DNA from: an uncultured Candidatus Saccharibacteria bacterium | GTDB lineage: Bacteria; Patescibacteriota; Doudnabacteria; UBA920 | Assembly (NCBI GenBank): GCA_964631145.1 | Contig: CAZVXT010000001.1 | Location: 52,969-116,968, forward strand | Direction of reading: 5' to 3' | Length of the DNA: 64,000 bases | Shown: one piece after another, positions 28,157-58,301 of the stretch | Position numbering within the stretch: the stretch's first letter is position 1 | Layout: each line of letters starts with the position of its first letter | Translations under genes and position numbers: made by a program | The notes under the pieces: model-generated | What the model was told of the DNA's origin: nothing | Database searches by the model: none | The model's input: only the letters and a program-made list of their open reading frames with translations

Positions 28157-29518
28157 ATGAATGAACAACAACTCTGGAAAGCAATTTTAGGAAACTTAGA
28201 AGTATCAATTAGTAGGGCAAACTACTTAACATGGTTTAAGAATACATCGATCATAGAACGGGGAGAAAACTATATCACAGTAAGCGTACCTAGTTTATTT
28301 ATCAAAAACTGGATTAATGATAAATACCATGGTTTTATTATTAAAGCCTTAAAGTCTATATCTCCTGATATTAAAGAGGTGAAATATCAAATAGGTGGAA
28401 CCAAGGTAGAAGAAAGTAATCAAGGAACACTTCTAAATAAGTCAGAGAAGACGGAAAAAAACACCGTTTTTTATCAAACTTCAGAAAGTGTTAATAGTAA
28501 TCACAATCTAAACAAACAATACACCTTTGAAACTTTCATCATTGGGCATAATAACGAGTTAGCCTATGCAGCTTCTACAGCAGTTTCAAAAAACCCTGGA
28601 AACCAATATAACCCTTTATTTATTTATGGTGGAGTAGGATTAGGGAAAACCCATTTAATGCAAGCGGTTGGTAATAAATTATTAGGAGAAAACCCTAGGG
28701 CAAGAGTCTTATACTCTTCTAGTGAAAAGTTTACTAACGACTTTATCAAATCTATTCAGCAAAAAAAAGTTGATGAATTCAAGAATGTATATAGAAGCGT
28801 TGATATGTTACTAATAGATGATATTCAATTTATTGCAGGTAAAGAACAGACTCAAGAAGAATTTTTCCATACGTTTAACGAATTAAGAGACAAAGGCAAG
28901 CAAATTATTATTACTTCCGACCGTCTGCCAAAAGATATTCCGGCAATTGAACAAAGGTTAATATCTAGGTTTGAATGGGGAATGGTTGTAGATATTAGTC
29001 CACCAAACCTTGAAACCAGAATAGCTATTATAAAAACTAAGTTAGCTAAAAAAGACATTAACTTATCAGAAGAAATTATTAACTATATTGCAGAAAATAT
29101 AGTTAGCAATGTCCGTGAACTAGAAGGTGCCTTAAACAAAATTACTGTGTTTAGCCAAGTTGGTAATAAGCAAATTTCGCTAGATCAAGTTAAAAGCGTA
29201 TTAGGTACAATAATTAATAGTAAAAAGAAGGTTGTTTCTATCAGAAAAATTGCCGAAACAGTAGCTAATTTTTATAGCGTTACAGTTGATGATCTTATAA
29301 AACAGTCTAGAAAAAAGGAATTTGTTAAACCAAGGCAAGTAGCAATGTACATAACTCGTAAAGAATTAGCTAGTTCTTTTCCTACAATAGGGGAATTTTT
29401 TGGGGGACGCGATCACACAACAGTTATGCATGGGGTAGAAAAACTAGAAAAAGCAGTAGCAATTGAAGATCCAATTAAGCAAGAACTGGAGCTAATTGTT
29501 GAAAAATTGTATGTATAA
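28157..29518 (+). CDS. dnaA: Chromosomal replication initiator DnaA
   Basis: AAA+ Walker A GGVGLGKTHL, box VII, C-terminal DNA-binding domain. Confidence 0.95.
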   Translation: MNEQQLWKAILGNLEVSISRANYLTWFKNTSIIERGENYITVSVPSLFIKNWINDKYHGFIIKALKSISPDIKEVKYQIGGTKVEESNQGTLLNKSEKTEKNTVFYQTSESVNSNHNLNKQYTFETFIIGHNNELAYAASTAVSKNPGNQYNPLFIYGGVGLGKTHLMQAVGNKLLGENPRARVLYSSSEKFTNDFIKSIQQKKVDEFKNVYRSVDMLLIDDIQFIAGKEQTQEEFFHTFNELRDKGKQIIITSDRLPKDIPAIEQRLISRFEWGMVVDISPPNLETRIAIIKTKLAKKDINLSEEIINYIAENIVSNVRELEGALNKITVFSQVGNKQISLDQVKSVLGTIINSKKKVVSIRKIAETVANFYSVTVDDLIKQSRKKEFVKPRQVAMYITRKELASSFPTIGEFFGGRDHTTVMHGVEKLEKAVAIEDPIKQELELIVEKLYV

Positions 29519-29521
29519 ACC

Positions 29522-29682
29522 TGTTGATAAGGTTGTGAAAAACTGTGTATCAATTTTAGATAAATCAAAAATCCTAAAATTATCCAGTTTTCATCAATAG
29601 TTAATCAAGTTTTTATCAACAACTAAATTACAATTTCGAGACCGTATTTATTAAACAAAATCAACTAATCCACTTATCCATA
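29522..29682. promoter_or_regulatory. DnaA-box cluster in the dnaA–dnaN spacer (likely oriC core)
   Basis: TGTTGATAA (29522), TTATCCAGT (29580), TTATCAACA (29613), adjacent TAATCCACT/TTATCCATA (29666-29682). Confidence 0.6.
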
Positions 29683-29715
29683 CGCCTTATTACTACTACT
29701 AAATATATATAAAAT

Positions 29716-30810
29716 ATGAAAATAATAAGTACTCAAGAAAATTTAAAAAACGGGTTACAAATAGTTTCTAAAATAGTAGGTAATAATACAACATTACCGA
29801 TTCTTAATAACTTATTATTTGAAACAGAAAACGGTTTATTAAAAGTTTCTGGCACAAACTTAGAAACAGGGATTAGTAATTTTATTCCATGTAAAATAGA
29901 AGTCGAAGGGAGTTTTTGTGTAGGCGTAAAAACTTTTAACGACCTTATTAACAACTTATCCGGAAATATAACTTTAGAGGTTAAGGATAGTGAATTGATT
30001 GTTTCTACAGAACATACTAATTCACGGTTAAAGACATTACCAACTGACGATTTTCCTGCAGTTCCAAAATTAGAAAACGAGCAAAAGATTAAACTTAATT
30101 CTATAGAATTTAAAAAGGCTTTAGATCAGGTTTTATTTGCTGCTAGCTTAAGTGAAACTCAACCAGAAATTTCCGGTGTATTATTCTGGTTTGGATTAGA
30201 AAAGGTTTTAATTACAGCTACAGATAGATACCGTTTAGCGGAATATGCTCTAAAGTATTCTGGTGGTTTGGAAAAAAAGATTATTATTCCTTCTAAATCA
30301 GTTGCGGAAATTTCTAGATTACTGCAATACGCAAATGGCGATGATATTGAAATGGTTGTTACTGATACTCAAGTTTCTGTGATGATAAACGATATTTACT
30401 TGTTAGCGAGAGTTATTGATGGACAATATCCGGATTATCAACAAATTATTCCTAATTCTTGTAATACCGAGATAACTTTGCAAAAAGATCAACTTCTTTC
30501 TTCTGTTAGGACAAGTAGCGTGTTCTCACGTGCTGTAGGAAGCTTAAATATCGCTTATGACGCGTCTAAACAGCTTTTGACTATAAATTCTATGTCTCAC
30601 GATATTGGGGAGAGTCTGATCGATATTCCGGTTAAAATTGATAACGGAGAAGGTGTGCTAATTTTTAATTACAAATACTTAATGGATTATCTTACTCATT
30701 TGTCTGACGATGATATTGTTATCAAAATTATTGATGATAATAGTCCTGTAATATTTGTTCCAAAAAATAGCAAAGATTATTTATATCTAGTAATGCCAAT
30801 TAAGCAATAA
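29716..30810 (+). CDS. dnaN: DNA polymerase III beta sliding clamp
   Basis: 364 aa; position after dnaA; three-domain clamp length. Confidence 0.9.
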   Translation: MKIISTQENLKNGLQIVSKIVGNNTTLPILNNLLFETENGLLKVSGTNLETGISNFIPCKIEVEGSFCVGVKTFNDLINNLSGNITLEVKDSELIVSTEHTNSRLKTLPTDDFPAVPKLENEQKIKLNSIEFKKALDQVLFAASLSETQPEISGVLFWFGLEKVLITATDRYRLAEYALKYSGGLEKKIIIPSKSVAEISRLLQYANGDDIEMVVTDTQVSVMINDIYLLARVIDGQYPDYQQIIPNSCNTEITLQKDQLLSSVRTSSVFSRAVGSLNIAYDASKQLLTINSMSHDIGESLIDIPVKIDNGEGVLIFNYKYLMDYLTHLSDDDIVIKIIDDNSPVIFVPKNSKDYLYLVMPIKQ

Positions 30811-30811
30811 T

Positions 30812-31894
30812 ATGAAAATTAATAAAATTATTTTAAAAAACTTTAGAAATTATCCAGAACTTGATTTGGAAATAAATAATGATACTGTTGTTTTGTCTGG
30901 TCCTAATGCGGTAGGTAAAACTAATTTATTAGAATCAGTTTATTTTGGCTCTTTATTTAAGTCTTTCCGCGATGATTCTGAATTTATTTTTTTGCGAGGA
31001 AGTAATGATACTGAAGTAAAGTTTGAACTAGATAAGAATGGAGAAACTCATTTATTAGAAATATTTATTGGTAAGCGTGAAAAGGTTGTTGCTAATTTTA
31101 AACTGGATGGAATAAAAAAGAAAAGAAAAGAAGTTCAAGGGTTTTTATCAGTAGTTATGTTTGAGCCAACAGATGTAGAACTATTTACTGCTTCACCAGA
31201 AGGAAGACGTAAATATTTGAACATGGTTTTGTCTCAAAAGCATCTAGAATATATTGATTTACTAAATAATTATAAAAAGGCAATGGTGCAAAAAAATAAA
31301 CTATTGCTTGGAAACAAACAGGGATTTAATAATTTAGATGCTTTGCCTTCATGGAATGAACAACTAGTAAATTATGGTAGTAAAATTACTTACTTACGCA
31401 AGCAATATGTTAATTTTTTAAATCAGCATTTATCAGAAGTTTATGCAGGTATTTCTAAATTTCATCGTCCAGTAGAAATAGTTTACGAAACTATAAACGG
31501 TGATACAGAGGAAGAAATTGCAGAAAACTTTAGAGCTTTTCTGCAAGAATATCAGCCTCGAGAAGTTGCTTCTGTAAGTTGTTTAGTTGGTCCTCATCGC
31601 GATGATATGAGGCTGCAGAGTGAGGGTTTGTATCTAGTATCTTTTTCTTCTCGTGGAGAAAAACGTAGTCAAATTTTGGCTTTAAAAATACTTGAATTAG
31701 AGTATTTAACAAAACAAGGTGATACACCAATATTGCTGCTTGATGATGTTTTATCGGAGTTAGATGATACAAGAAGAACTTTTTTACTTAAATATTTACA
31801 AGGGAAGTTTCAAACAATTATTACCACAACCCACCCCTTAGAAATGGTTGGTCAACATATTACACTTAGTCCTGGCACTCAAGAAGAAGAGTAA
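30812..31894 (+). CDS. recF: DNA replication/repair protein RecF
   Basis: Walker A GPNAVGKTNLLES; SMC-like; dnaA–dnaN–recF order. Confidence 0.9.
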   Translation: MKINKIILKNFRNYPELDLEINNDTVVLSGPNAVGKTNLLESVYFGSLFKSFRDDSEFIFLRGSNDTEVKFELDKNGETHLLEIFIGKREKVVANFKLDGIKKKRKEVQGFLSVVMFEPTDVELFTASPEGRRKYLNMVLSQKHLEYIDLLNNYKKAMVQKNKLLLGNKQGFNNLDALPSWNEQLVNYGSKITYLRKQYVNFLNQHLSEVYAGISKFHRPVEIVYETINGDTEEEIAENFRAFLQEYQPREVASVSCLVGPHRDDMRLQSEGLYLVSFSSRGEKRSQILALKILELEYLTKQGDTPILLLDDVLSELDDTRRTFLLKYLQGKFQTIITTTHPLEMVGQHITLSPGTQEEE

Positions 31895-42904: not shown

Positions 42905-43894
42905 ATGGATACAGGAGAAATAATAATTTATAAAGATAATAGTGGTCCTCAAATTGAGGTAAATTTTGTTGATGATACTATATGGCTCACCCAGTCGCAG
43001 ATGGCTGATCTGTTTGGTAAAGACATTAGAACTATCTCTGAACATATCAAAAATATCTTTAAAACCGGGGAATTAGCAAAAGATTCAGTTATCCGGAATT
43101 TCCGGATAACTGCAAAAGATGGTAAAAACTATAATACGGCACATTACAATTTAGATATGATAATTTCTGTAGGATATAGAGTTAATTCTAAGCGCGGTAC
43201 TCAGTTTCGTATTTGGGCTACTTCAAAAATTCGAGATTTTTTACTAAAAGGTTATGTAGTAAATAAAAACGTTTTGCAATCTGGTGCTCTTGCAAAAGTT
43301 AAAGAGTTAGAGGGGGCGGTTAGGTTGATTCAATTAGCAATACAAAATAAAAAATTAGAAGGATATGAAAAGGAGGTTTTAGATATTATTACAGATTATG
43401 CTGCAACTTGGACTTTACTATATCAGTACGATGAACAAAAGCTACAACCAGAGCATGTGGTAAAGAAGGTAACTAGAAAATTAGATTATGAACAAGTTAC
43501 AAAATCTATTGATAAATTTCGAGACCGATTACTAAAAGATAAACAGGCTAGCAAGTTATTTGGAAAAGAACAAGATGGTAAGCTCCAGGCATTGTTAGGA
43601 AATATAGAGCAAACTTATGACGGCAAGTCTGTGTATGAAGGTTTTGAACAAAAGGCTGCTCATTTATTATACTTTGCAATTAAGGATCATCCTTTTGCAG
43701 ACGGTAATAAACGAATTGGTTCTTTATTATTTATTTTATACTTAGTAGAAAATGATCGCATTTATAACAAGCGAGGCGATAGAATAATTAATGACAATGC
43801 ATTAACAGCAATTGCATTATTAATTGCAGAAAGTAGTCCCAGTGAAAAAAGCACAATGGTTAATTTAGTGGCAAGTTTGATTGCAAAAAAATAA
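42905..43894 (+). CDS. RhuM-family N-terminal domain fused to a Doc/Fic (death-on-curing type) C-terminal domain
   Basis: C-terminal HPFADGNKRIGS matches the Doc variant of the Fic motif HxFx(D)GNKR; the N-terminal ~200 aa resemble virulence-protein RhuM-family proteins. Confidence 0.7.
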   Translation: MDTGEIIIYKDNSGPQIEVNFVDDTIWLTQSQMADLFGKDIRTISEHIKNIFKTGELAKDSVIRNFRITAKDGKNYNTAHYNLDMIISVGYRVNSKRGTQFRIWATSKIRDFLLKGYVVNKNVLQSGALAKVKELEGAVRLIQLAIQNKKLEGYEKEVLDIITDYAATWTLLYQYDEQKLQPEHVVKKVTRKLDYEQVTKSIDKFRDRLLKDKQASKLFGKEQDGKLQALLGNIEQTYDGKSVYEGFEQKAAHLLYFAIKDHPFADGNKRIGSLLFILYLVENDRIYNKRGDRIINDNALTAIALLIAESSPSEKSTMVNLVASLIAKK

Positions 43895-52178: not shown

Positions 52179-52281
52179 TCAATTATTTGTTAATTAATAT
52201 TTTTGGTTTCGCGTTAGTTTTTATTATGCGAACAATATTTAAAATTTTAAGAATTTTATAAAAATAAAAGCGTAAGAGTTC

Positions 52282-52677
52282 TTACGCTTTTTTCTTTTTT
52301 GCTTTTGTTATATTTGGTTTTTGACCATAGTGCAGCTTTATGTTTTTAGAAGGTTCTGATTTATCTAACTTCAAAAAATTTTCAACCACTTTATTATTAG
52401 GCAAAACTATTACTGGGATATTTAATCCAAGTGCAAGGCTTTGTCCCAAAGCTGTTCCAACTCTAATCCCTGTAAAAGACCCTGGTCCGCTGGCGGTAAT
52501 AATTTTTGATATTTGATTAAACTTAAGTTTGTTGGATTTTAAAAACCTTTCTAGTAACTCTAAAGTTTTGTAGTTCTCATTAAAGGCTATCTCAAAAGTT
52601 TGTTTAATGATTTTTTCTTTGGATACGATTTTAAATTCTGCCTGTCCAAAATTAGTTGTATTGATAACTAAAATCAT
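52282..52677 (-). CDS. tsaB: tRNA t6A biosynthesis protein TsaB (N-terminal-domain-only short form)
   Basis: ITASGPGSFTGIRVGTALGQSLALGLNIPVIVL is the TsaB/YeaZ signature; only 131 aa. Confidence 0.75.
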   Translation of the reverse strand: MILVINTTNFGQAEFKIVSKEKIIKQTFEIAFNENYKTLELLERFLKSNKLKFNQISKIITASGPGSFTGIRVGTALGQSLALGLNIPVIVLPNNKVVENFLKLDKSEPSKNIKLHYGQKPNITKAKKKKA

Positions 52678-53975
52678 GATTCTAAAATTTGCTTAATAAT
52701 CTCTCTATCGTCCCACAAAATTCTTTTGTTGCCAGGTAGAACTAGAAACTGTTCACTGCCTTTTCCTGTGACAAGAAGAATATCTTTAGGCTGTAAAATT
52801 TTGATAGCAAATTGTAATGCTTCTAATCTGCTCAGTATTACTTCGTGTTGGATTTTAGGATTTTCAGATCTTATTCCTTTTACTATTTCTGCTGCGATTT
52901 CTTGGGGATTGCTTTCGTATACATCATCGTTGGTCACGATTATATAGTCAGCAAATTGTGCAGAGATTTGTCCAAACTCAAATCTTTTGCTTTTATCACG
53001 ATGTCCGCCAGTCGCACCAAAAACATGAATCAATCTGTTATGTGGCAATTTATGAACTGTTTGAATACTGTTATAAAGCGGCTTGGGCTCTGGTGCGTAA
53101 TCAACAATAATATTTGCGTCTAAATTATTTTTTATAAATTCCATTCTTCCGGCAGCTCCATTATAAGATGCAAGTGCTGTTGCGGATTGTTGTAATGTGA
53201 TGCCATAAAATTTTGCGGCCGTGGTTGCTAATAAAGCATTATAGATATTGAACCTGCCGATGATATTTAAGTTAAACTTAACATCATTAACCATGTAAGA
53301 AGCTGCCCCTTTATCGTTAATCTCAGCGGCTGTAATTAAGTTTGTAATATGTGTCTCTATTTTTTGTTTTAAAGTGACTCCAAACAAATTACTTACTGGT
53401 TGGTTGGCAAAAACTTCATAATGTTTGTCATCAACATTAACTACAATAAATCCATCTTCTGGAATCAATTTAAATAATTTTAATTTAGCATTTCTATAAT
53501 TATCAAAATTACCATGGCTATCCAAATGAGCAGGTGATAGGTTGGTAAAAATTGCCCCAGAAAAATTAATTTTTAAGTGACGATTTTGAGCCATGCCTTC
53601 GGAGGTGCATTCGATAATTGCAAACTGGCAACCATTGCTAACAAGTTGTGCTAAATTTTTTTGAAGTAGCCAACCGCCTGGCATAGATAATCCATGTTTG
53701 TTTAAAATGCTTGTATCTCCATCGCTAAAACCAACTGTTGTAATGTAACCAGTTTTTTTATTATTTTGATTTAAGATATGAGCCAGCATCATGACAGTAG
53801 AAGATTTTCCTGCTGTGCCAGTAACACCAATACAGATTAGCTTTTGACTAGGGTGATCGAAATATAAATCTGCTAAAGTTGCGATCATTCCATGCCAATA
53901 AGGTTGAGCAAGTTTAAAGATGCTTCTGGGAATAAAAATTTTTATAACTTTTTTTATTTGGCTTAACATAAACAA
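52674..53975 (-). CDS. MurE-like Mur ligase lacking the N-terminal UDP-binding domain
   Basis: [30 protein letters not shown] parallels E. coli MurE [42 protein letters not shown] and [16 protein letters not shown] are Mur-ligase motifs; C-terminal [10 protein letters not shown]...WDDRE; overlaps tsaB by 4 nt. Confidence 0.7.
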   Translation of the reverse strand: [433 protein letters not shown]

Positions 53976-54055
53976 ATTATACCTGATATTAATATATTTG
54001 ACAAAAATTGATTTTTATGATAAAATAACAAAAAAAATATGGAGGAATTTTGATA

Positions 54056-54912
54056 TGAATCAAATTCAAAAAATGCAGCAAATTTCCAGTGAAATTCGAC
54101 TTTGGTTAATCAGTTTCGCGATCAGTGTTGTGTTATTGATTTGTGGTGGCGCGCATATTACTTATTTGTCATTTTATAGGGTAGATTGGGGGTTCTGGGG
54201 TAGTCTTTTATTATATTTTTCTATAATAATAGTGCAAGTGGCTGGGGTTGTCTCAATTGCGACTTGTCGCAAGGTTCCTGTATTACATCAGACCTTTAAT
54301 ATTGAGGCAACAAAATATTTTCGGCAAAACCCAAAATTCGTTACTCTTAGAAAAAGTAAAACTGCCCCCGTTTACTTTACGGTTAGAAATATATTTTTCA
54401 TGATTTTTATGGATGACTTTATTCAAAAAGTTGATGAAAATATTAATGAGCAGTATATAGAAATGTTAAATAATATTTCTATAAGTAAAATTGATGAACG
54501 TCATTATGAAAAAGATGAGATCCTACAAAACTTTTTAGAGTCAAACGAAGTTGCCATTGATTATAAAATTTCTAAAAGAATTTTAAAAGCCATTGGAAAT
54601 TACGCAATGGCGATAAATCAAAAGCAGTTGTTGATTGATGAAGTAGAAGCCAGATTTTTTGCCAAGGATCAATCCAAGGTAGTTGAGCAAAAAGTAGAAC
54701 CTCCAAAAGTTCTATCTAAGTTTGAAAGACGGCTACAAGAATTTGAAAAAGAAGTTGGAAGTAATAAACTTTCTACTATGGCTCAAGACCTAATTAACCA
54801 GGCTATTCTTAAAGAAGATCCAAACCTCGTTAGTGGTGCTTTGACAATTTACCGCCAAGACTTAAAAAAGAAAAAAGACTTGGAACAAAAAGCCAAAAAG
54901 GTGAAGGTGTAA
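54056..54912 (+). CDS. Hypothetical membrane-anchored coiled-coil protein
   Basis: Start set at MNQIQKMQQ (ATGGAGGAATTTTGATATG) because the longer ORF overlaps the murE-like start; 2 TM helices plus a charged C-terminal half. Confidence 0.45.
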
Positions 54913-54980
54913 ATTATTTAAAGGATGTTAAAACCATCCTTTTTTATTTTGCATAAAAATAAAACCAAGCAAGCTTGGTT

Positions 54981-55946
54981 TTAAAAAAAGTTTCTAATTA
55001 ATTTAAGAGCTTTATAAATTTGATAAGAAAAATTCTTGATAACAATATCTTGTGCTGGCGGGTATTTGATAGCAAATCCTGGAAACTTTTTTTTGAAATC
55101 ACTAAATCCTGCATTTTTTCCGCTAGAGGTTTGTAATCCCCACCAATCGTATTTTTGTTTGCCTATATTTTGCGCATCTTGGATTATTTTCCAGTGCATC
55201 AAATATGGCGCCATATATTTGCGGTACTCGTAGTTACTGCCGCCAAATAAATAAGTTCGTGTATTTAAAAAGTCTATAGTGATTGCCGAAGTAATAATTT
55301 TGTTGTGATAAGTAGCGGCATAGAGATGATTGCTAACTTGGGAGCTTTTTAAATTATTTATTAAAGTTTTGTAGTATTCAAAATTATGATCTTTGTATTG
55401 CTGCCGTTCGGCTGTGTTATTAATTAGCTTTAGTCCTTCGTTAATTTCCTCTTCTTTATCAAGTATTTTTATTTCAACATTATGCCTTTGTGCCAGATTT
55501 ATATTGTATCTAGTTTTGTGATGCATACTAGATAATATGTCTGGTGCATTATCTGTTAAATCTGTAATCCAAGTAATGCCTGGTTGAATTCTAGAGCCAA
55601 TTTTGCCACGGCAGTTAAATTCTTGTTGAGGTTCTATTTTTATATAAATAAAGTCTTTGTTTAAAGATTTAAGATTATTTAATAAAAAAGCTATACCTAT
55701 TTTGCTTCCTAATGGACCATATGGGCAGTATAAAAACTTTTTGTTTATAAATGGAATTGTTTGAATGAAAAACTGTGCAGAAGCAATAATTTGATTATTA
55801 TCTTCAACTAAATATTTTAACGAAACTTTATTTTGTTGTGCTTGAAAATCTCCCCACTCTATACTTTGCAAAAAAGAGGAGTGTTGCTTTTCGATAAATT
55901 GATTATATAAATCTTTGTTGAGATCGCTAACTTCTATAACTTGCAT
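54981..55946 (-). CDS. FemAB-family (FemX/MurM-like) aminoacyl-tRNA-dependent peptidoglycan branch transferase
   Basis: 321 aa with the FemAB-family layout and conserved C-terminal region (KYMAPYLMHWKIIQDAQNIG). Confidence 0.65.
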   Translation of the reverse strand: MQVIEVSDLNKDLYNQFIEKQHSSFLQSIEWGDFQAQQNKVSLKYLVEDNNQIIASAQFFIQTIPFINKKFLYCPYGPLGSKIGIAFLLNNLKSLNKDFIYIKIEPQQEFNCRGKIGSRIQPGITWITDLTDNAPDILSSMHHKTRYNINLAQRHNVEIKILDKEEEINEGLKLINNTAERQQYKDHNFEYYKTLINNLKSSQVSNHLYAATYHNKIITSAITIDFLNTRTYLFGGSNYEYRKYMAPYLMHWKIIQDAQNIGKQKYDWWGLQTSSGKNAGFSDFKKKFPGFAIKYPPAQDIVIKNFSYQIYKALKLIRNFF

Positions 55947-56507
55947 TTATATTTTCCCAATTAGTTTTAACGCTTCTTTAATTTGCTCTCCGGTATCAAC
56001 AGTTGTATCGATTTTACCAATAACTTCTCGTACTTCTCGAGGATTGTAGCCAAGAGAAATTAATGCATCAAATAAGTCACTGCTTGGTCCAGAAGTAGAT
56101 TGAAGAATATTGCCAGACATTTTATTTTTAAGTTCTAAAATAATTCTTTCGGCAGTTTTTTTACCTACCCCGGACATGCGAGTAAATATATCGCTATCGC
56201 CAGAAAGAATAGCTTGTTCTAACATATCTAATTTACCAGCAGAGATAATGGTAAGAGCCATCTTTGGTCCAACCCCTGTGACAGTTAGGAGCAATTCAAA
56301 AAATTGTAAGCTAGTAAAATCGCTCATACCAAATAAAGTTTGACCGTCATCGCTGGATTTATGGTAAATATATAAAGAAATATTTGAACCAGCTGTTTGA
56401 TCTAAAATCTCTGGAGTTGTAAAAATTTTATAACCAACTCCGTTATTTACCAATATGATAAATTGAGCAGTTTTTTGTAAGATTTTTCCTTCAAGATAAC
56501 TAATCAT
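55947..56507 (-). CDS. ruvA: Holliday junction DNA helicase subunit RuvA
   Basis: MISYLEGKI...; HhH motifs (GVGPKMALTIIS, GVGKKTAERIILEL); 186 aa. Confidence 0.9.
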   Translation of the reverse strand: MISYLEGKILQKTAQFIILVNNGVGYKIFTTPEILDQTAGSNISLYIYHKSSDDGQTLFGMSDFTSLQFFELLLTVTGVGPKMALTIISAGKLDMLEQAILSGDSDIFTRMSGVGKKTAERIILELKNKMSGNILQSTSGPSSDLFDALISLGYNPREVREVIGKIDTTVDTGEQIKEALKLIGKI

Positions 56508-56587: not shown

Positions 56588-57376
56588 ATGTCTAGTATTG
56601 TTACTTTCAATAGCGGTGTGTCAGAATTTTATTATTTAATACCAGATAGATTTCAAAATAAAAAAATCCATGGAATTAAAATATGTGTAACAGAAAAAGC
56701 AAATGAGCATATATGTAAATTTTTTACGTCCAACTCACCCTTAATAGCTAGAGCTCTAAAAGAACGCAAAACAATTAATTTTGTTGAGCCAACATTCAAA
56801 GGTGCTTGGGGTTTAGATTCTTGTTGTATTTCAAAGAAAAAAAATAATATAGTCGAGCACACTTTTTCTTTTGATGCTAAATGGTCTTTGATTAGAGAAA
56901 TGCTAAATATAATGTTTTTACTCTTAAGCATAATAGAAGATGATTATTTGGTAAATTCGCAATACAAACAACTAATGATAATTGAATCCTTAGGCGTAAC
57001 AAGTGGATTAAGCCACTCTTATATATCAGGTTCTGTATCATCAATATTTAAAAACTCTTCAGATTTTTTATTTGAACGTGGTAATAAAAACCATCAAGAG
57101 GTTTTAAAAAATATGCAGTATGTATATTCAGAATATTCTTCAGAGCGTAATAAAAGTAGTTTTAGGTTTAGTGTGGACAATGGTGGTCAATTTGGATTAT
57201 CAGTTCCTGGAGATTGTTGCTGTTTAAGTATTCCTTATGACGAACTGGGAGAATTAAAAGATGTTAGTCGATTTGCCTCTCATAACGTTGATGGTATCAC
57301 TCAGCAATTCTCGTTACTAATTGGTTTGGCGACCATGTGGGAAATCGTAAGAAATAACTATCTACTTAAGGTCTAG
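56588..57376 (+). CDS. Hypothetical Cys-containing protein (accessory-class; perfect SD, own terminator)
   Basis: 262 aa; AAGGAGGGGTTAAAATG; contains a CCC triplet and a hydrophobic central segment. Confidence 0.45.
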   Translation: MSSIVTFNSGVSEFYYLIPDRFQNKKIHGIKICVTEKANEHICKFFTSNSPLIARALKERKTINFVEPTFKGAWGLDSCCISKKKNNIVEHTFSFDAKWSLIREMLNIMFLLLSIIEDDYLVNSQYKQLMIIESLGVTSGLSHSYISGSVSSIFKNSSDFLFERGNKNHQEVLKNMQYVYSEYSSERNKSSFRFSVDNGGQFGLSVPGDCCCLSIPYDELGELKDVSRFASHNVDGITQQFSLLIGLATMWEIVRNNYLLKV

Positions 57377-57437: not shown

Positions 57438-58301
57438 ATGGCTCAATATACTAGTATTGGAAACCTTTTTACTATATATAAAGAATCCGTGCCGCAATGG
57501 TATAAAATTAGTTTTGATTTTGTATCAAAATCTTTTGAGTTTATTGTTCAAAAGCAAATCGCAGAATGGTGCGAGGAAAATTTTATAAATAAAAACTTTG
57601 GACATGTTCAAGGCTACTGCAAAGATTTTGGCTTTGAATTTACTAAGCCGTTTAAAAATCAAAATTGGGGATTTAATAAAAATATTTCTGCAAAAAAAAT
57701 AATAAATCAAAATTGGGTTAAATATAAAATTAAGATCCCTACAAAAAATTATTATCAAGGAATTCCTGTTTTTACCCAAAAAAGTAATAAGCAAATACTA
57801 GCAACCTGTGCTTCCATATCGGAATTTGCTTTAATGCTTGGTTGTGTTCCGTTTGATTTGCCTATAGATTATGGACAAAAACAAGTATTACATTTTTATT
57901 CAAGCCTAAACAGCGATGTTGGTGCTTTAAATAGATTTCCGGTTTCTGCTTATGTATCAAGTTCTGTTTGTGAGTGGGCGCTTTTAGCTGGACAAGATAA
58001 TTTAAATATCCTGGCTTATAATATTGATAAAGTAGAAAATATTATCTGTGGTTACCAAAACTATTCGGAGCGTCCCCGAGCATGGATAAATTTAATCAGT
58101 GACTTTTATATAGGAATTAACATTGGTGTGCATTTGGGAATGAGTCCTAACATGCATAATGCTAAAGCTTCTAACTATGATATTGGCTATACATTAGTTT
58201 CTGATAATGCGGATAATTGCACAAATCAGTTGATATTAATGTGTAGCTTGGCTTTATTGCACAATGAAGTAGAAGTTTGTTCAACAGAAGTTTGGGGGTA
58301 A
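57438..58301 (+). CDS. Hypothetical Cys-containing protein (accessory-class; possible distant paralog of the preceding gene)
   Basis: 287 aa; TTAGGAGGATAATTATG; terminator hairpin TGCTAATTTTACATGAATTAGCA at 58311-58344. Confidence 0.45.
   Translation: MAQYTSIGNLFTIYKESVPQWYKISFDFVSKSFEFIVQKQIAEWCEENFINKNFGHVQGYCKDFGFEFTKPFKNQNWGFNKNISAKKIINQNWVKYKIKIPTKNYYQGIPVFTQKSNKQILATCASISEFALMLGCVPFDLPIDYGQKQVLHFYSSLNSDVGALNRFPVSAYVSSSVCEWALLAGQDNLNILAYNIDKVENIICGYQNYSERPRAWINLISDFYIGINIGVHLGMSPNMHNAKASNYDIGYTLVSDNADNCTNQLILMCSLALLHNEVEVCSTEVWG

What the first reader, a model, noticed from the sequence alone, without database searches (positions are those of the whole stretch)
52282..55946. Peptidoglycan stem-peptide module: N-terminally truncated MurE-like ligase with a non-canonical specificity motif, translationally overlapped with tsaB, near a FemAB-family transferase
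The Mur ligase at 52674-53975 starts at the equivalent of E. coli MurE residue ~85. The YH.PS…GVTGT.GK..T block is only ~50 aa from the N-terminus, so the UDP-binding domain 1 is missing. At the position of the amino-acid-specificity motif (DNPR in DAP-adding MurE, within VTDDNPRTEEPRAI) the sequence reads [14 protein letters not shown]. The residue added to the stem peptide is therefore not predictable, and the substrate may not be a classical UDP-MurNAc-dipeptide.

Its start overlaps the tsaB stop by 4 nt, which is an unusual coupling of tRNA modification and cell-wall genes. A FemX/MurM-like branch-peptide transferase (54981-55946) and an uncharacterised membrane/coiled-coil protein (54056-54912) lie 1 kb away. 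Together these point to a non-standard peptidoglycan peptide chemistry.
Basis: partly seen in the sequence, partly recalled or inferred. Interest (0 to 1): 0.5.

Follow-up and report, generated by a model that had tools for sequence, protein, structure and literature searches.

The report
Short MurE ligase typical of Patescibacteria
This cell-wall ligase (MurE) really does lack its usual nucleotide-binding front domain and carries an unusual substrate-choice motif, but both traits are shared by hundreds of related ultra-small bacteria (Patescibacteria), so it is normal for its lineage and has apparently not been studied.

Summary
The ORF 52674-53969(-) encodes a 431-aa MurE-subfamily ligase (TIGR01085, 339.8 bits, cutoff 257.3). 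It has only the Mur_ligase_M and Mur_ligase_C domains, and two N-terminal helices replace domain 1. At the DNPR position it reads DDVY.

It is not a one-off truncation. All 240 listed close and distant homologues, and 149 of 150 representatives at 50% identity, are about 420-480 aa with the same two-domain build. All are from Patescibacteria. Their motif is [E/D]-D-[P/V]-[Y/F].

Gene order is conserved: ruvA, FemAB-family transferase, short murE, mini-tsaB. FemAB is present in 70 of 80 related loci and is directly adjacent to murE in about 24. tsaB is present in 60 of 80.

My best reading is that this is the lineage's working MurE. It probably adds L-Lys or a similar diamino acid, not DAP, and the FemX-like enzyme then branches that residue. 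This would give a Gram-positive-like peptidoglycan.

The tsaB link is conserved synteny without evident functional meaning.

I could not test whether a full-length murE exists elsewhere in the genome. I found no paper describing this short form. Interest is moderate.

The parts
52674..53969 (-). Short-form MurE (431 aa): Mur_ligase_M plus Mur_ligase_C, with no domain 1
   Evidence: TIGR01085 scores 339.8 bits, above its 257.3 cutoff. Foldseek TM (query-normalised) is 0.85 to S. aureus MurE 4c12 and E. coli MurE 1e8c.
53862..53969 (-). N-terminal 36 residues ([36 protein letters not shown]): two helices in place of the ~90-residue uridine-binding domain 1. They carry the family-conserved P14, P23, (Y)H26 and G27.
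   Evidence: Y and H are at least 90% conserved in the diverse alignment A2. The first helix is amphipathic and cationic.
53802..53828 (-). ATP P-loop GVTGTAGKS (residues 48-56)
   Evidence: G48, T50, G51, T52, G54, K55 and S56 are invariant in A1.
52917..52931 (-). NDDVY (residues 347-351) at the DNPR specificity position. D348 corresponds to E. coli D413 and Y351 to E. coli R416.
   Evidence: TNDDVY occurs in 117 of 120 close homologues. The wider family reads [E/D]DP[Y/F].
52282..52677 (-). Mini-TsaB (131 aa, N-terminal half of TsaB/YeaZ only)
   Evidence: Orthologues of 99-151 aa follow murE in 60 of 80 loci. The orthologue is 128 aa in CP064996.1.
52674..52677 (-). ATGA overlap: murE stop TGA and tsaB start ATG
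53976..54004 (-). Promoter-like TTGTCA-17-TATAAT ending 6 nt before the murE ATG, with no Shine-Dalgarno sequence (leaderless-looking)
   Evidence: This is a consensus match only.
54981..55946 (-). FemAB-family (FemX-like, 321 aa, no coiled-coil arm) aminoacyl-tRNA-dependent branch transferase
   Evidence: It is the conserved upstream neighbour of the short murE.
55947..56507 (-). ruvA, the first gene of the conserved ruvA-femAB-murE-tsaB order. Its stop directly abuts the femAB start.
54055..54912 (+). Orphan 285-aa ORF (2 TM segments plus a Lys/Glu-rich tail) on the opposite strand, in the variable slot between femAB and murE. It is not part of the module.
   Evidence: no family; no homologue in 80 loci; slot content varies.
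52266..52291 (.). Bidirectional terminator-like hairpin after tsaB
54960..54983 (-). Terminator-like hairpin after femAB. It separates ruvA-femAB from murE-tsaB in this genome.

Best explanation
The gene is this organism's copy of a Patescibacteria-wide short-form MurE. This is the ATP-dependent ligase that adds the third residue to UDP-MurNAc-L-Ala-D-Glu.

The lineage has reduced the ~90-residue uridine-binding domain 1 to two helices that carry a conserved P...P.YH motif. The complete catalytic core is retained: P-loop, Mg-binding Glu, the carbamylated-Lys position, and the domain 3 residues that hold the incoming amino acid.

In the amino-acid pocket, the two acidic groups that hold the side-chain ammonium are kept (D348 and E406). 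The Asn and Arg that hold the distal carboxylate of meso-DAP are replaced by Asp and Tyr. The added residue is therefore most likely L-Lys, or another diamino acid without a distal carboxylate such as L-Orn.

The FemX-like transferase is the conserved operon partner of this ligase. It would then acylate that side-chain amine from an aminoacyl-tRNA, giving a branched, Gram-positive-like stem peptide.

Shown: the architecture, the conservation, the motif, the synteny and the fold.
Inferred: catalytic competence, UDP-linked substrate, Lys-type specificity, and the FemX acceptor.
For: Family assignment:
- TIGR01085 murE scores above its cutoff, and MurF, MurT, MurC, MurD, Mpl and FolC score far lower.
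- The best solved relatives are all MurE. T. maritima L/D-Lys MurE is top at 189 bits.
- The AlphaFold2 model (pLDDT 92.3) superposes on S. aureus and E. coli MurE at TM 0.85. The target-normalised TM is 0.73-0.75 because the targets have an extra domain.

Clade-wide and conserved:
- All 120 close hits are 423-461 aa with only PF08245 and PF02875.
- 149 of the 150 best representatives at 50% identity are short.
- All 120 hits to a diverse profile are 430-475 aa. Those with names are Falkow-, Buchanan-, Kuenen-, Kerfeld- or Doudnabacteria, or 'Patescibacteria group'.
- Catalytic positions are invariant.

Specificity:
- According to PMC3829189, the Asn and Arg of DNPR bind the DAP distal carboxylate. 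The first Asp, together with Glu468 (E. coli) or Glu460 (S. aureus), binds the epsilon-amine.
- Here D348 and E406 are invariant, and the Asn/Arg positions are D349 and Y351.

Synteny:
- FemAB lies upstream on the same strand in 70 of 80 loci and abuts murE in about 24.
- Independent gene calls in CP064996.1 and a Kerfeldbacteria contig agree.

Other support:
- The window also encodes a class A PBP, so peptidoglycan is made.
- No detached domain 1 was found in the window or in the 80 loci.
- No second Mur ligase lies within 10 kb on either side in any locus.
Against: - No biochemistry exists for any member.
- I could not scan the rest of this genome or any relative's genome, so a co-resident full-length MurE is not excluded.
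- Loss of the uridine-binding domain is unprecedented among characterised MurC-F enzymes and might abolish or change substrate recognition.
- The motif's fourth residue (Tyr/Phe) matches neither the DAP type (Arg) nor the known Lys type (Asn/Ala). S. aureus work shows that pocket residues only partly determine specificity (PMC3829189).
- The equivalog models for both the DAP ligase (332 against 373) and the Lys ligase (229 against 536) fall below their cutoffs.
- The DYAH motif reads DYAP in this subgroup (compared).
Confidence: 0.68

Rival explanations
1. It is a meso-DAP-adding MurE, as public annotations say. The variant motif is a neutral lineage-specific substitution.
For: Sources name homologues as the 2,6-diaminopimelate ligase. 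The best NCBIfam equivalog by score is a DAP-ligase model, at 332 bits. FemX-type enzymes can also branch LL-DAP in some actinobacteria (my own background knowledge, not checked here).
Against: That model scores below its cutoff of 373. The Asn and Arg that bind the DAP distal carboxylate are both replaced, across the whole family, by Asp and Tyr/Phe. The extra acidic residue would repel a carboxylate. From general knowledge of the group, Patescibacteria largely lack amino-acid biosynthesis, so DAP would have to be scavenged.
Confidence: 0.15
2. It is a MurE-derived paralogue that no longer uses a uridine-linked substrate. It might use a membrane-bound or recycled MurNAc-peptide, by analogy with domain-1-less relatives such as MurT. 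The classical step would be done by another enzyme elsewhere in the genome.
For: Domain 1, the uridine site (PMC3829189), is absent in the whole family. The N-terminal helix is amphipathic and cationic, with a hydrophobic moment (muH) of 0.6-0.7 and net charge about +2. murE lies outside any dcw-type cluster, and no other Mur ligase lies within 10 kb on either side.
Against: Every MurE-like protein recovered from these lineages is the short form. Domain 2, which binds most of the UDP-MurNAc-peptide, is intact and scores as MurE. In distant relatives a sugar-1-phosphate nucleotidyltransferase sits between femAB and murE, which is consistent with nucleotide-sugar chemistry. The amphipathic helix could simply cover the surface left bare by the loss of domain 1.
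Confidence: 0.12
3. It is a truncation artefact, a pseudogene or a mis-called start.
For: None beyond the short length.
Against: An in-frame stop and a divergent promoter region lie upstream. The same length and the same conserved N-terminal motif occur in hundreds of independent assemblies. The fold prediction is high-confidence.
Confidence: 0.01

Closest known systems
MurE of Thermotoga maritima (PDB 4bub; L-/D-lysine-adding) and of Staphylococcus aureus (4c12; L-Lys-adding)
   Same: They share the MurE subfamily, the domain 2 and 3 fold (TM 0.80-0.85), the P-loop, the carbamyl-Lys position, and the Asp and Glu that bind the side-chain amine. Position 2 of the motif is Asp, as in T. maritima DDPR.
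   Different: Both have a ~90-98-residue uridine-binding domain 1 that is absent here. The fourth motif residue is Arg (T. maritima) or Ala (S. aureus), against Tyr here. Sequence identity is 27-30%.
MurE of E. coli and M. tuberculosis (1e8c, 2xja; meso-DAP-adding, DNPR)
   Same: Same fold and catalytic machinery.
   Different: Their DNPR reads DDVY here, so the Asn and Arg that hold the DAP carboxylate are lost. Domain 1 is absent here.
MurT (lipid II isoglutaminyl synthase subunit), FolC and CapB: Mur-ligase-family enzymes without a UDP-binding domain 1
   Same: Two-domain build, with the P-loop near the N-terminus.
   Different: Very weak sequence scores (MurT 39.6 bits, FolC 37.5 bits). 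There is no DUF1727. Here the C-terminal domain and the motifs are of MurE type.
FemX of Weissella viridescens (1ne9/3gkr; UDP-MurNAc-pentapeptide:L-Ala transferase), for the neighbouring gene
   Same: Best solved match. Similar length (321 against 335 aa), and no coiled-coil arm of the FemA/FemB kind. PF02388 scores 135 bits.
   Different: Only about 45 bits to FemX. The FemX equivalog model scores 57.9 against a cutoff of 500. The amino acid transferred and the acceptor are unknown.

Membership tests
MurE (UDP-N-acetylmuramyl-tripeptide synthetase subfamily, TIGR01085) | Whole-protein score above the curated cutoff | tested here: met
   339.8 bits against a cutoff of 257.3.
MurE | Central ATPase domain with a TGTxGK(T/S) P-loop, the Mg-binding Glu and the carbamylated-Lys position | tested here: met
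   PF08245 at 140.8 bits. [9 protein letters not shown], E120 and K162 are invariant in the family.
MurE | C-terminal Mur_ligase_C domain holding the amino-acid site | tested here: met
   PF02875 at 76.8 bits. R324, K328, R329, D348 and E406 are invariant.
MurE | N-terminal uridine-binding domain 1 (PF01225; three-domain build) | tested here: not met
   No PF01225 hit. The profile match starts at position 67 of 472. The model shows only two helices. The same holds for all listed homologues.
meso-DAP-adding MurE (EC 6.3.2.13) | DNPR motif, and the equivalog model cutoff | tested here: not met
   The motif is DDVY. NF001126 scores 332.4 against a cutoff of 373.
L-Lys-adding MurE (EC 6.3.2.7) | Loss of the Arg, retention of the Asp/Glu pair that binds the epsilon-amine, and the equivalog model cutoff | tested here: inconclusive
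   The Arg is absent and D348 and E406 are kept. However, NF010628 scores 228.8 against a cutoff of 536, and Tyr is not seen in characterised Lys-type enzymes.
MurE | Catalytic activity on UDP-MurNAc-L-Ala-D-Glu | not testable with these tools
   Requires enzymology.
MurT / MurF | Family model cutoffs; DUF1727 for MurT | tested here: not met
   MurT scores 39.6 against 800 and MurF 78.4 against 288.6. No DUF1727 was found.
FemAB family (54981-55946) | PF02388 above the gathering score | tested here: met
   135.4 bits against 24. Homologues are named FemA/FemB family.
FemX (UDP-MurNAc-pentapeptide-lysine N6-alanyltransferase equivalog) | NF047883 cutoff | tested here: not met
   57.9 against 500.
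TsaB (52282-52677) | TIGR03725 cutoff and the two-lobed, ~210-230-aa build | tested here: not met
   62.8 against 69.3. Only profile positions 2-96 of 212 match, and the protein is 131 aa.

The most novel reading that the evidence does not exclude
Because the uridine-binding domain is gone throughout the phylum, the short MurE may recognise its substrate without the nucleotide. The conserved P.YH helix or a partner enzyme could substitute for domain 1, or the substrate could be membrane-proximal or non-UDP. The enzyme may also install a third-position residue not seen in known peptidoglycans. That would mean Patescibacteria run a mechanistically distinct version of the cytoplasmic Mur pathway.
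Probability: 0.12. Interest if true: 0.75.

Novelty: new variant of a known kind. Interest (0 to 1): 0.4.

Why it matters
Every MurC-F ligase with a solved structure that this search recovered has three domains, with domain 1 holding the uridine of the substrate. A whole phylum-level radiation that keeps MurE without that domain is a natural experiment on what Mur ligases minimally need.

It also gives a sequence-level handle ([E/D]DP[Y/F]) on the unknown peptidoglycan chemotype of Patescibacteria. My searches of the paper library found no muropeptide data for them.

The tight femX-murE operon predicts a branched Lys-type wall. That is relevant to how these episymbionts are seen by hosts, lysins and antibiotics.

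For this particular window, however, the gene is simply the ordinary local copy of that lineage-wide form.

Tried and rejected
- Re-calling the start. An in-frame stop lies at 54017-54015 and a promoter region lies upstream, so no extension is possible.
- Looking for another Mur ligase in the window. Pfam on 30 further ORFs (the ten of 343-453 aa, then twenty of the remaining ORFs of 158-936 aa) found none.
- Looking for a detached domain 1. phmmer with two PF01225-containing segments against six-frame translations of the window and all ORFs of the 80 loci gave nothing below E = 0.1. This is a weak, single-sequence test.
- Looking for a second Mur ligase near murE in relatives. There is one hit per locus.
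- Identifying or walking the source genome. The look-up of encoding contigs has no record for the window's MurE or FemAB, and cluster look-ups give no name. Whole-genome co-occurrence of a full-length murE could therefore not be tested.
- Structural search against AFDB was unavailable.
- Literature. Searches were MurE + Patescibacteria/CPR, 'Mur ligase' + Patescibacteria, FemX + Saccharibacteria, and Saccharibacteria + muropeptide. I found no description of a short MurE and no CPR muropeptide data.
- P0228, the one long hit among the representatives, is a tandem fusion of two ordinary full-length MurEs. It is not a link to the short family.
- The idea that the 285-aa membrane ORF belongs to the module is rejected. 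It has no homologue in any related locus, and the slot it occupies holds unrelated genes elsewhere.
Full report
**1. Checking the observation**

- ligase, 52674-53975(-)
- tsaB-like, 52282-52677(-)
- an ORF on the plus strand ending at 54912
- FemAB-like, 54981-55946(-)
- ruvA, 55947-56507(-)

Reading the upstream DNA shows an in-frame stop at 54017-54015. It also shows a near-consensus TTGTCA-17-TATAAT that ends 6 nt before an ATG at 53969. The 431-aa product from that ATG is the form present in public databases at 100% identity.

No start re-call can add an N-terminal domain. The intergenic DNA holds two back-to-back promoter-like sites, one for the ligase and one for the divergent ORF, whose ATG is at 54055.

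The 4-nt overlap is ATGA.

**2. What the ligase is**

- Pfam finds Mur_ligase_M (residues 51-254) and Mur_ligase_C (276-406) and nothing N-terminal.
- NCBIfam places it in the MurE subfamily, TIGR01085, at 339.8 bits against a cutoff of 257.3. The match runs from profile position 67 to 471 of 472.
- MurF, MurT, MurC, MurD, Mpl and FolC models score far lower.
- The DAP-ligase and Lys-ligase equivalog models both fall below their cutoffs.
- All strong PDB sequence matches are MurE, led by the T. maritima L/D-lysine ligase. The alignments begin at chain residue ~89-94 and query residue ~28-30.
- An AlphaFold2 model built on 45 homologues is confident (pLDDT 92.3, pTM 0.91). It shows two helices (2-12, 15-36) and then the P-loop strand.
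- Foldseek gives query-normalised TM 0.85 to S. aureus and E. coli MurE, but target-normalised TM of only 0.73-0.75. That is what a target with one extra domain should give.

**3. The specificity motif**

NDDVY (52917-52931) aligns with:
- E. coli D-D-N-P-R
- T. maritima D-D-D-P-R
- S. aureus P-D-N-P-A

PMC3829189 states that the Asn and Arg of DNPR hydrogen-bond the distal carboxylate of meso-DAP. The first Asp, together with Glu468 (E. coli) or Glu460 (S. aureus), holds the side-chain amine.

In this protein the Asp (D348) and the Glu (E406, in GKGSEQ) are invariant across the family. The Asn and Arg positions are D349 and Y351. The pocket keeps what is needed for a cationic side chain and loses what is needed for DAP's second carboxylate.

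**4. It is a lineage trait, not an accident**

- The 120 best database hits are all 423-461 aa with only the M and C domains. Those with names come from Patescibacteria or Doudnabacteria.
- 117 of those 120 read TNDDVY, and the P-loop sits at residue ~43-52.
- A profile search of 1.84 billion representatives clustered at 50% identity returned 150 top hits. Of these, 149 are short. The four long ones I scanned are short MurEs with insertions or C-terminal fusions.
- The single exception, P0228, is a tandem of two ordinary full-length MurEs.
- Across these representatives the motif is mostly TNEDPY. The general form is [E/D]-D-[P/V]-[Y/F].
- A second database search with a diverse profile again listed only 430-475-aa, two-domain proteins. 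Those with names are Falkow-, Buchanan-, Kuenen- or Kerfeldbacteria, or 'Patescibacteria group'.
- The N-terminal stub is itself conserved. P14, P23, H26 and G27 are invariant among close relatives. A Y-H pair and an upstream Pro are at least 90% conserved in the diverse set.
- The first helix is amphipathic and cationic.

**5. Genomic context**

Eighty related loci from species-representative genomes were fetched. The window proteins were then searched against their ORFs. The conserved order on one strand is ruvA, femAB, short murE, mini-tsaB, followed by a convergent ABC-2 transporter.

- FemAB is found upstream in 70 of 80 loci.
- ruvA is found in 65 of 80.
- tsaB is found in 60 of 80. It is present in 60 of 66 loci of the DDVY subgroup and in none of the 14 in the more distant EDPY subgroup.
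- In about 24 loci the femAB stop lies within a few tens of bases of the murE start.
- Independent gene calls in the closed 943-kb genome CP064996.1 and in a Kerfeldbacteria contig confirm the order. They also show the same macro-synteny as the window: rpoBC, uvrB and polA nearby.

The slot between femAB and murE is variable. It may be:
- empty
- a LOG/TIGR00725 gene
- a sugar-1-phosphate nucleotidyltransferase
- opposite-strand ClpC-like genes
- an ABC exporter
- in this window, an orphan 285-aa ORF with two TM segments and a coiled-coil-like tail. This ORF has no family hit and no homologue in any locus.

No other Mur-ligase homologue lies within 10 kb on either side of the short murE in any locus. 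No detached domain 1 was detected.

The window also carries a class A PBP, a VanW protein and a Wzy-like protein. The organism therefore makes a wall.

**6. The neighbours**

The FemAB-family protein (PF02388, 135 bits) is closest to W. viridescens FemX among solved structures. It has FemX's compact build of about 320-335 aa without the coiled-coil arm. It is far below the FemX equivalog cutoff. Its homologues are Patescibacteria proteins annotated as FemA/FemB family.

The tsaB product is only the N-terminal half of TsaB/YeaZ. Similar mini forms of 99-151 aa follow murE in relatives. I see no evidence for a functional link between t6A synthesis and the wall. In these compact genomes this is best treated as conserved gene packing.

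**7. Mechanism proposed**

Shown:
- a conserved, confidently folding two-domain MurE with all catalytic residues in place
- a pocket that keeps the amine-binding acids and lacks the DAP-carboxylate binders
- a conserved operon with a FemX-type transferase

Inferred:
- It ligates a diamino acid without a distal carboxylate onto UDP-MurNAc-L-Ala-D-Glu. L-Lys is the most likely, since it is available to an auxotroph.
- It binds the substrate mainly through domain 2, with the P.YH stub replacing domain 1.
- FemX then adds a branch to the side-chain amine.

Rivals are a DAP ligase as annotated, a paralogue with a non-uridine substrate, and an artefact. They are weighed in the structured sections of this report.

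The main open point is whether a three-domain MurE coexists in the same genomes. The tools gave access only to 10 kb on each side of each gene.

**8. Novelty and verdict**

The proteins are already annotated as MurE. However, in my searches of the paper library I found no paper that notes the missing domain or the [E/D]DP[Y/F] motif, and no muropeptide data for the phylum.

I rate it a new variant of a known kind. It is of moderate interest as a phylum-level enzymological oddity. For this particular window it is ordinary.

Noticed in passing
window 53976-54054: Two back-to-back near-consensus sigma-70-like promoters sit in a 79-bp divergent intergenic region. The minus-strand -10 box ends 6 nt before the murE ATG and there is no Shine-Dalgarno sequence, so the murE-tsaB mRNA looks leaderless.
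   Followed up: partly
window 52282-52677 (-); relatives in L002-L065: TsaB is a 131-aa mini form consisting of the N-terminal lobe only. Relatives are 99-151 aa in 60 loci. This suggests a lineage-wide reduced TsaB whose ability to partner TsaD is untested.
   Followed up: partly
window 54055-54912 (+): An orphan 285-aa ORF with two predicted TM segments and a Lys/Glu-rich C-terminus. It has its own promoter-like and terminator-like sites. It has no Pfam or NCBIfam hit and no homologue in 80 related loci. It occupies a slot that holds different genes in different relatives.
   Followed up: partly
L070 9232-9957, L066 8150-8878, L082 2504-3268: In the more distant (EDPY-motif) Patescibacteria, a ~241-254-aa sugar-1-phosphate nucleotidyltransferase lies downstream of femAB and upstream of murE. 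In L070-type loci it directly abuts murE. It resembles the N-terminal half of archaeal GlmU and matches MurU only weakly.
   Followed up: partly
window 56588-57376 and 57438-58301 (+): Two adjacent ORFs of 262 and 287 aa between ruvA and rpoB. Neither has a Pfam hit, and they have almost no homologues in the 80 related loci (1 and 2 hits).
   Followed up: no
window 42905-43894 (+): An ORF combining RhuM-family and Fic/DOC domains, possibly a toxin or mobile-element remnant, next to polA.
   Followed up: no
P0228 (JGI metagenome protein, 979 aa): A tandem fusion of two full-length MurE ligases in one polypeptide. The first has a DNPR motif and the second has DNAE. This suggests two different third-residue specificities in one protein.
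   Followed up: partly
P0238 and P0262 (short-MurE representatives): Short MurE fused C-terminally to DUF192 (613 aa) or to an Archease domain (589 aa).
   Followed up: no
window 28157-31894: dnaA-dnaN-recF, with cumulative GC skew rising after ~28 kb. The window probably spans the replication origin.
   Followed up: no
L070, L071, L073, L074, L078-L080 record titles: Contigs labelled 'uncultured Gammaproteobacteria bacterium' carry short MurE. Four of them (L070, L074, L078, L080) also have the Patescibacteria-type ruvA-femAB-murE synteny. The taxonomic labels of these assemblies look unreliable.
   Followed up: no
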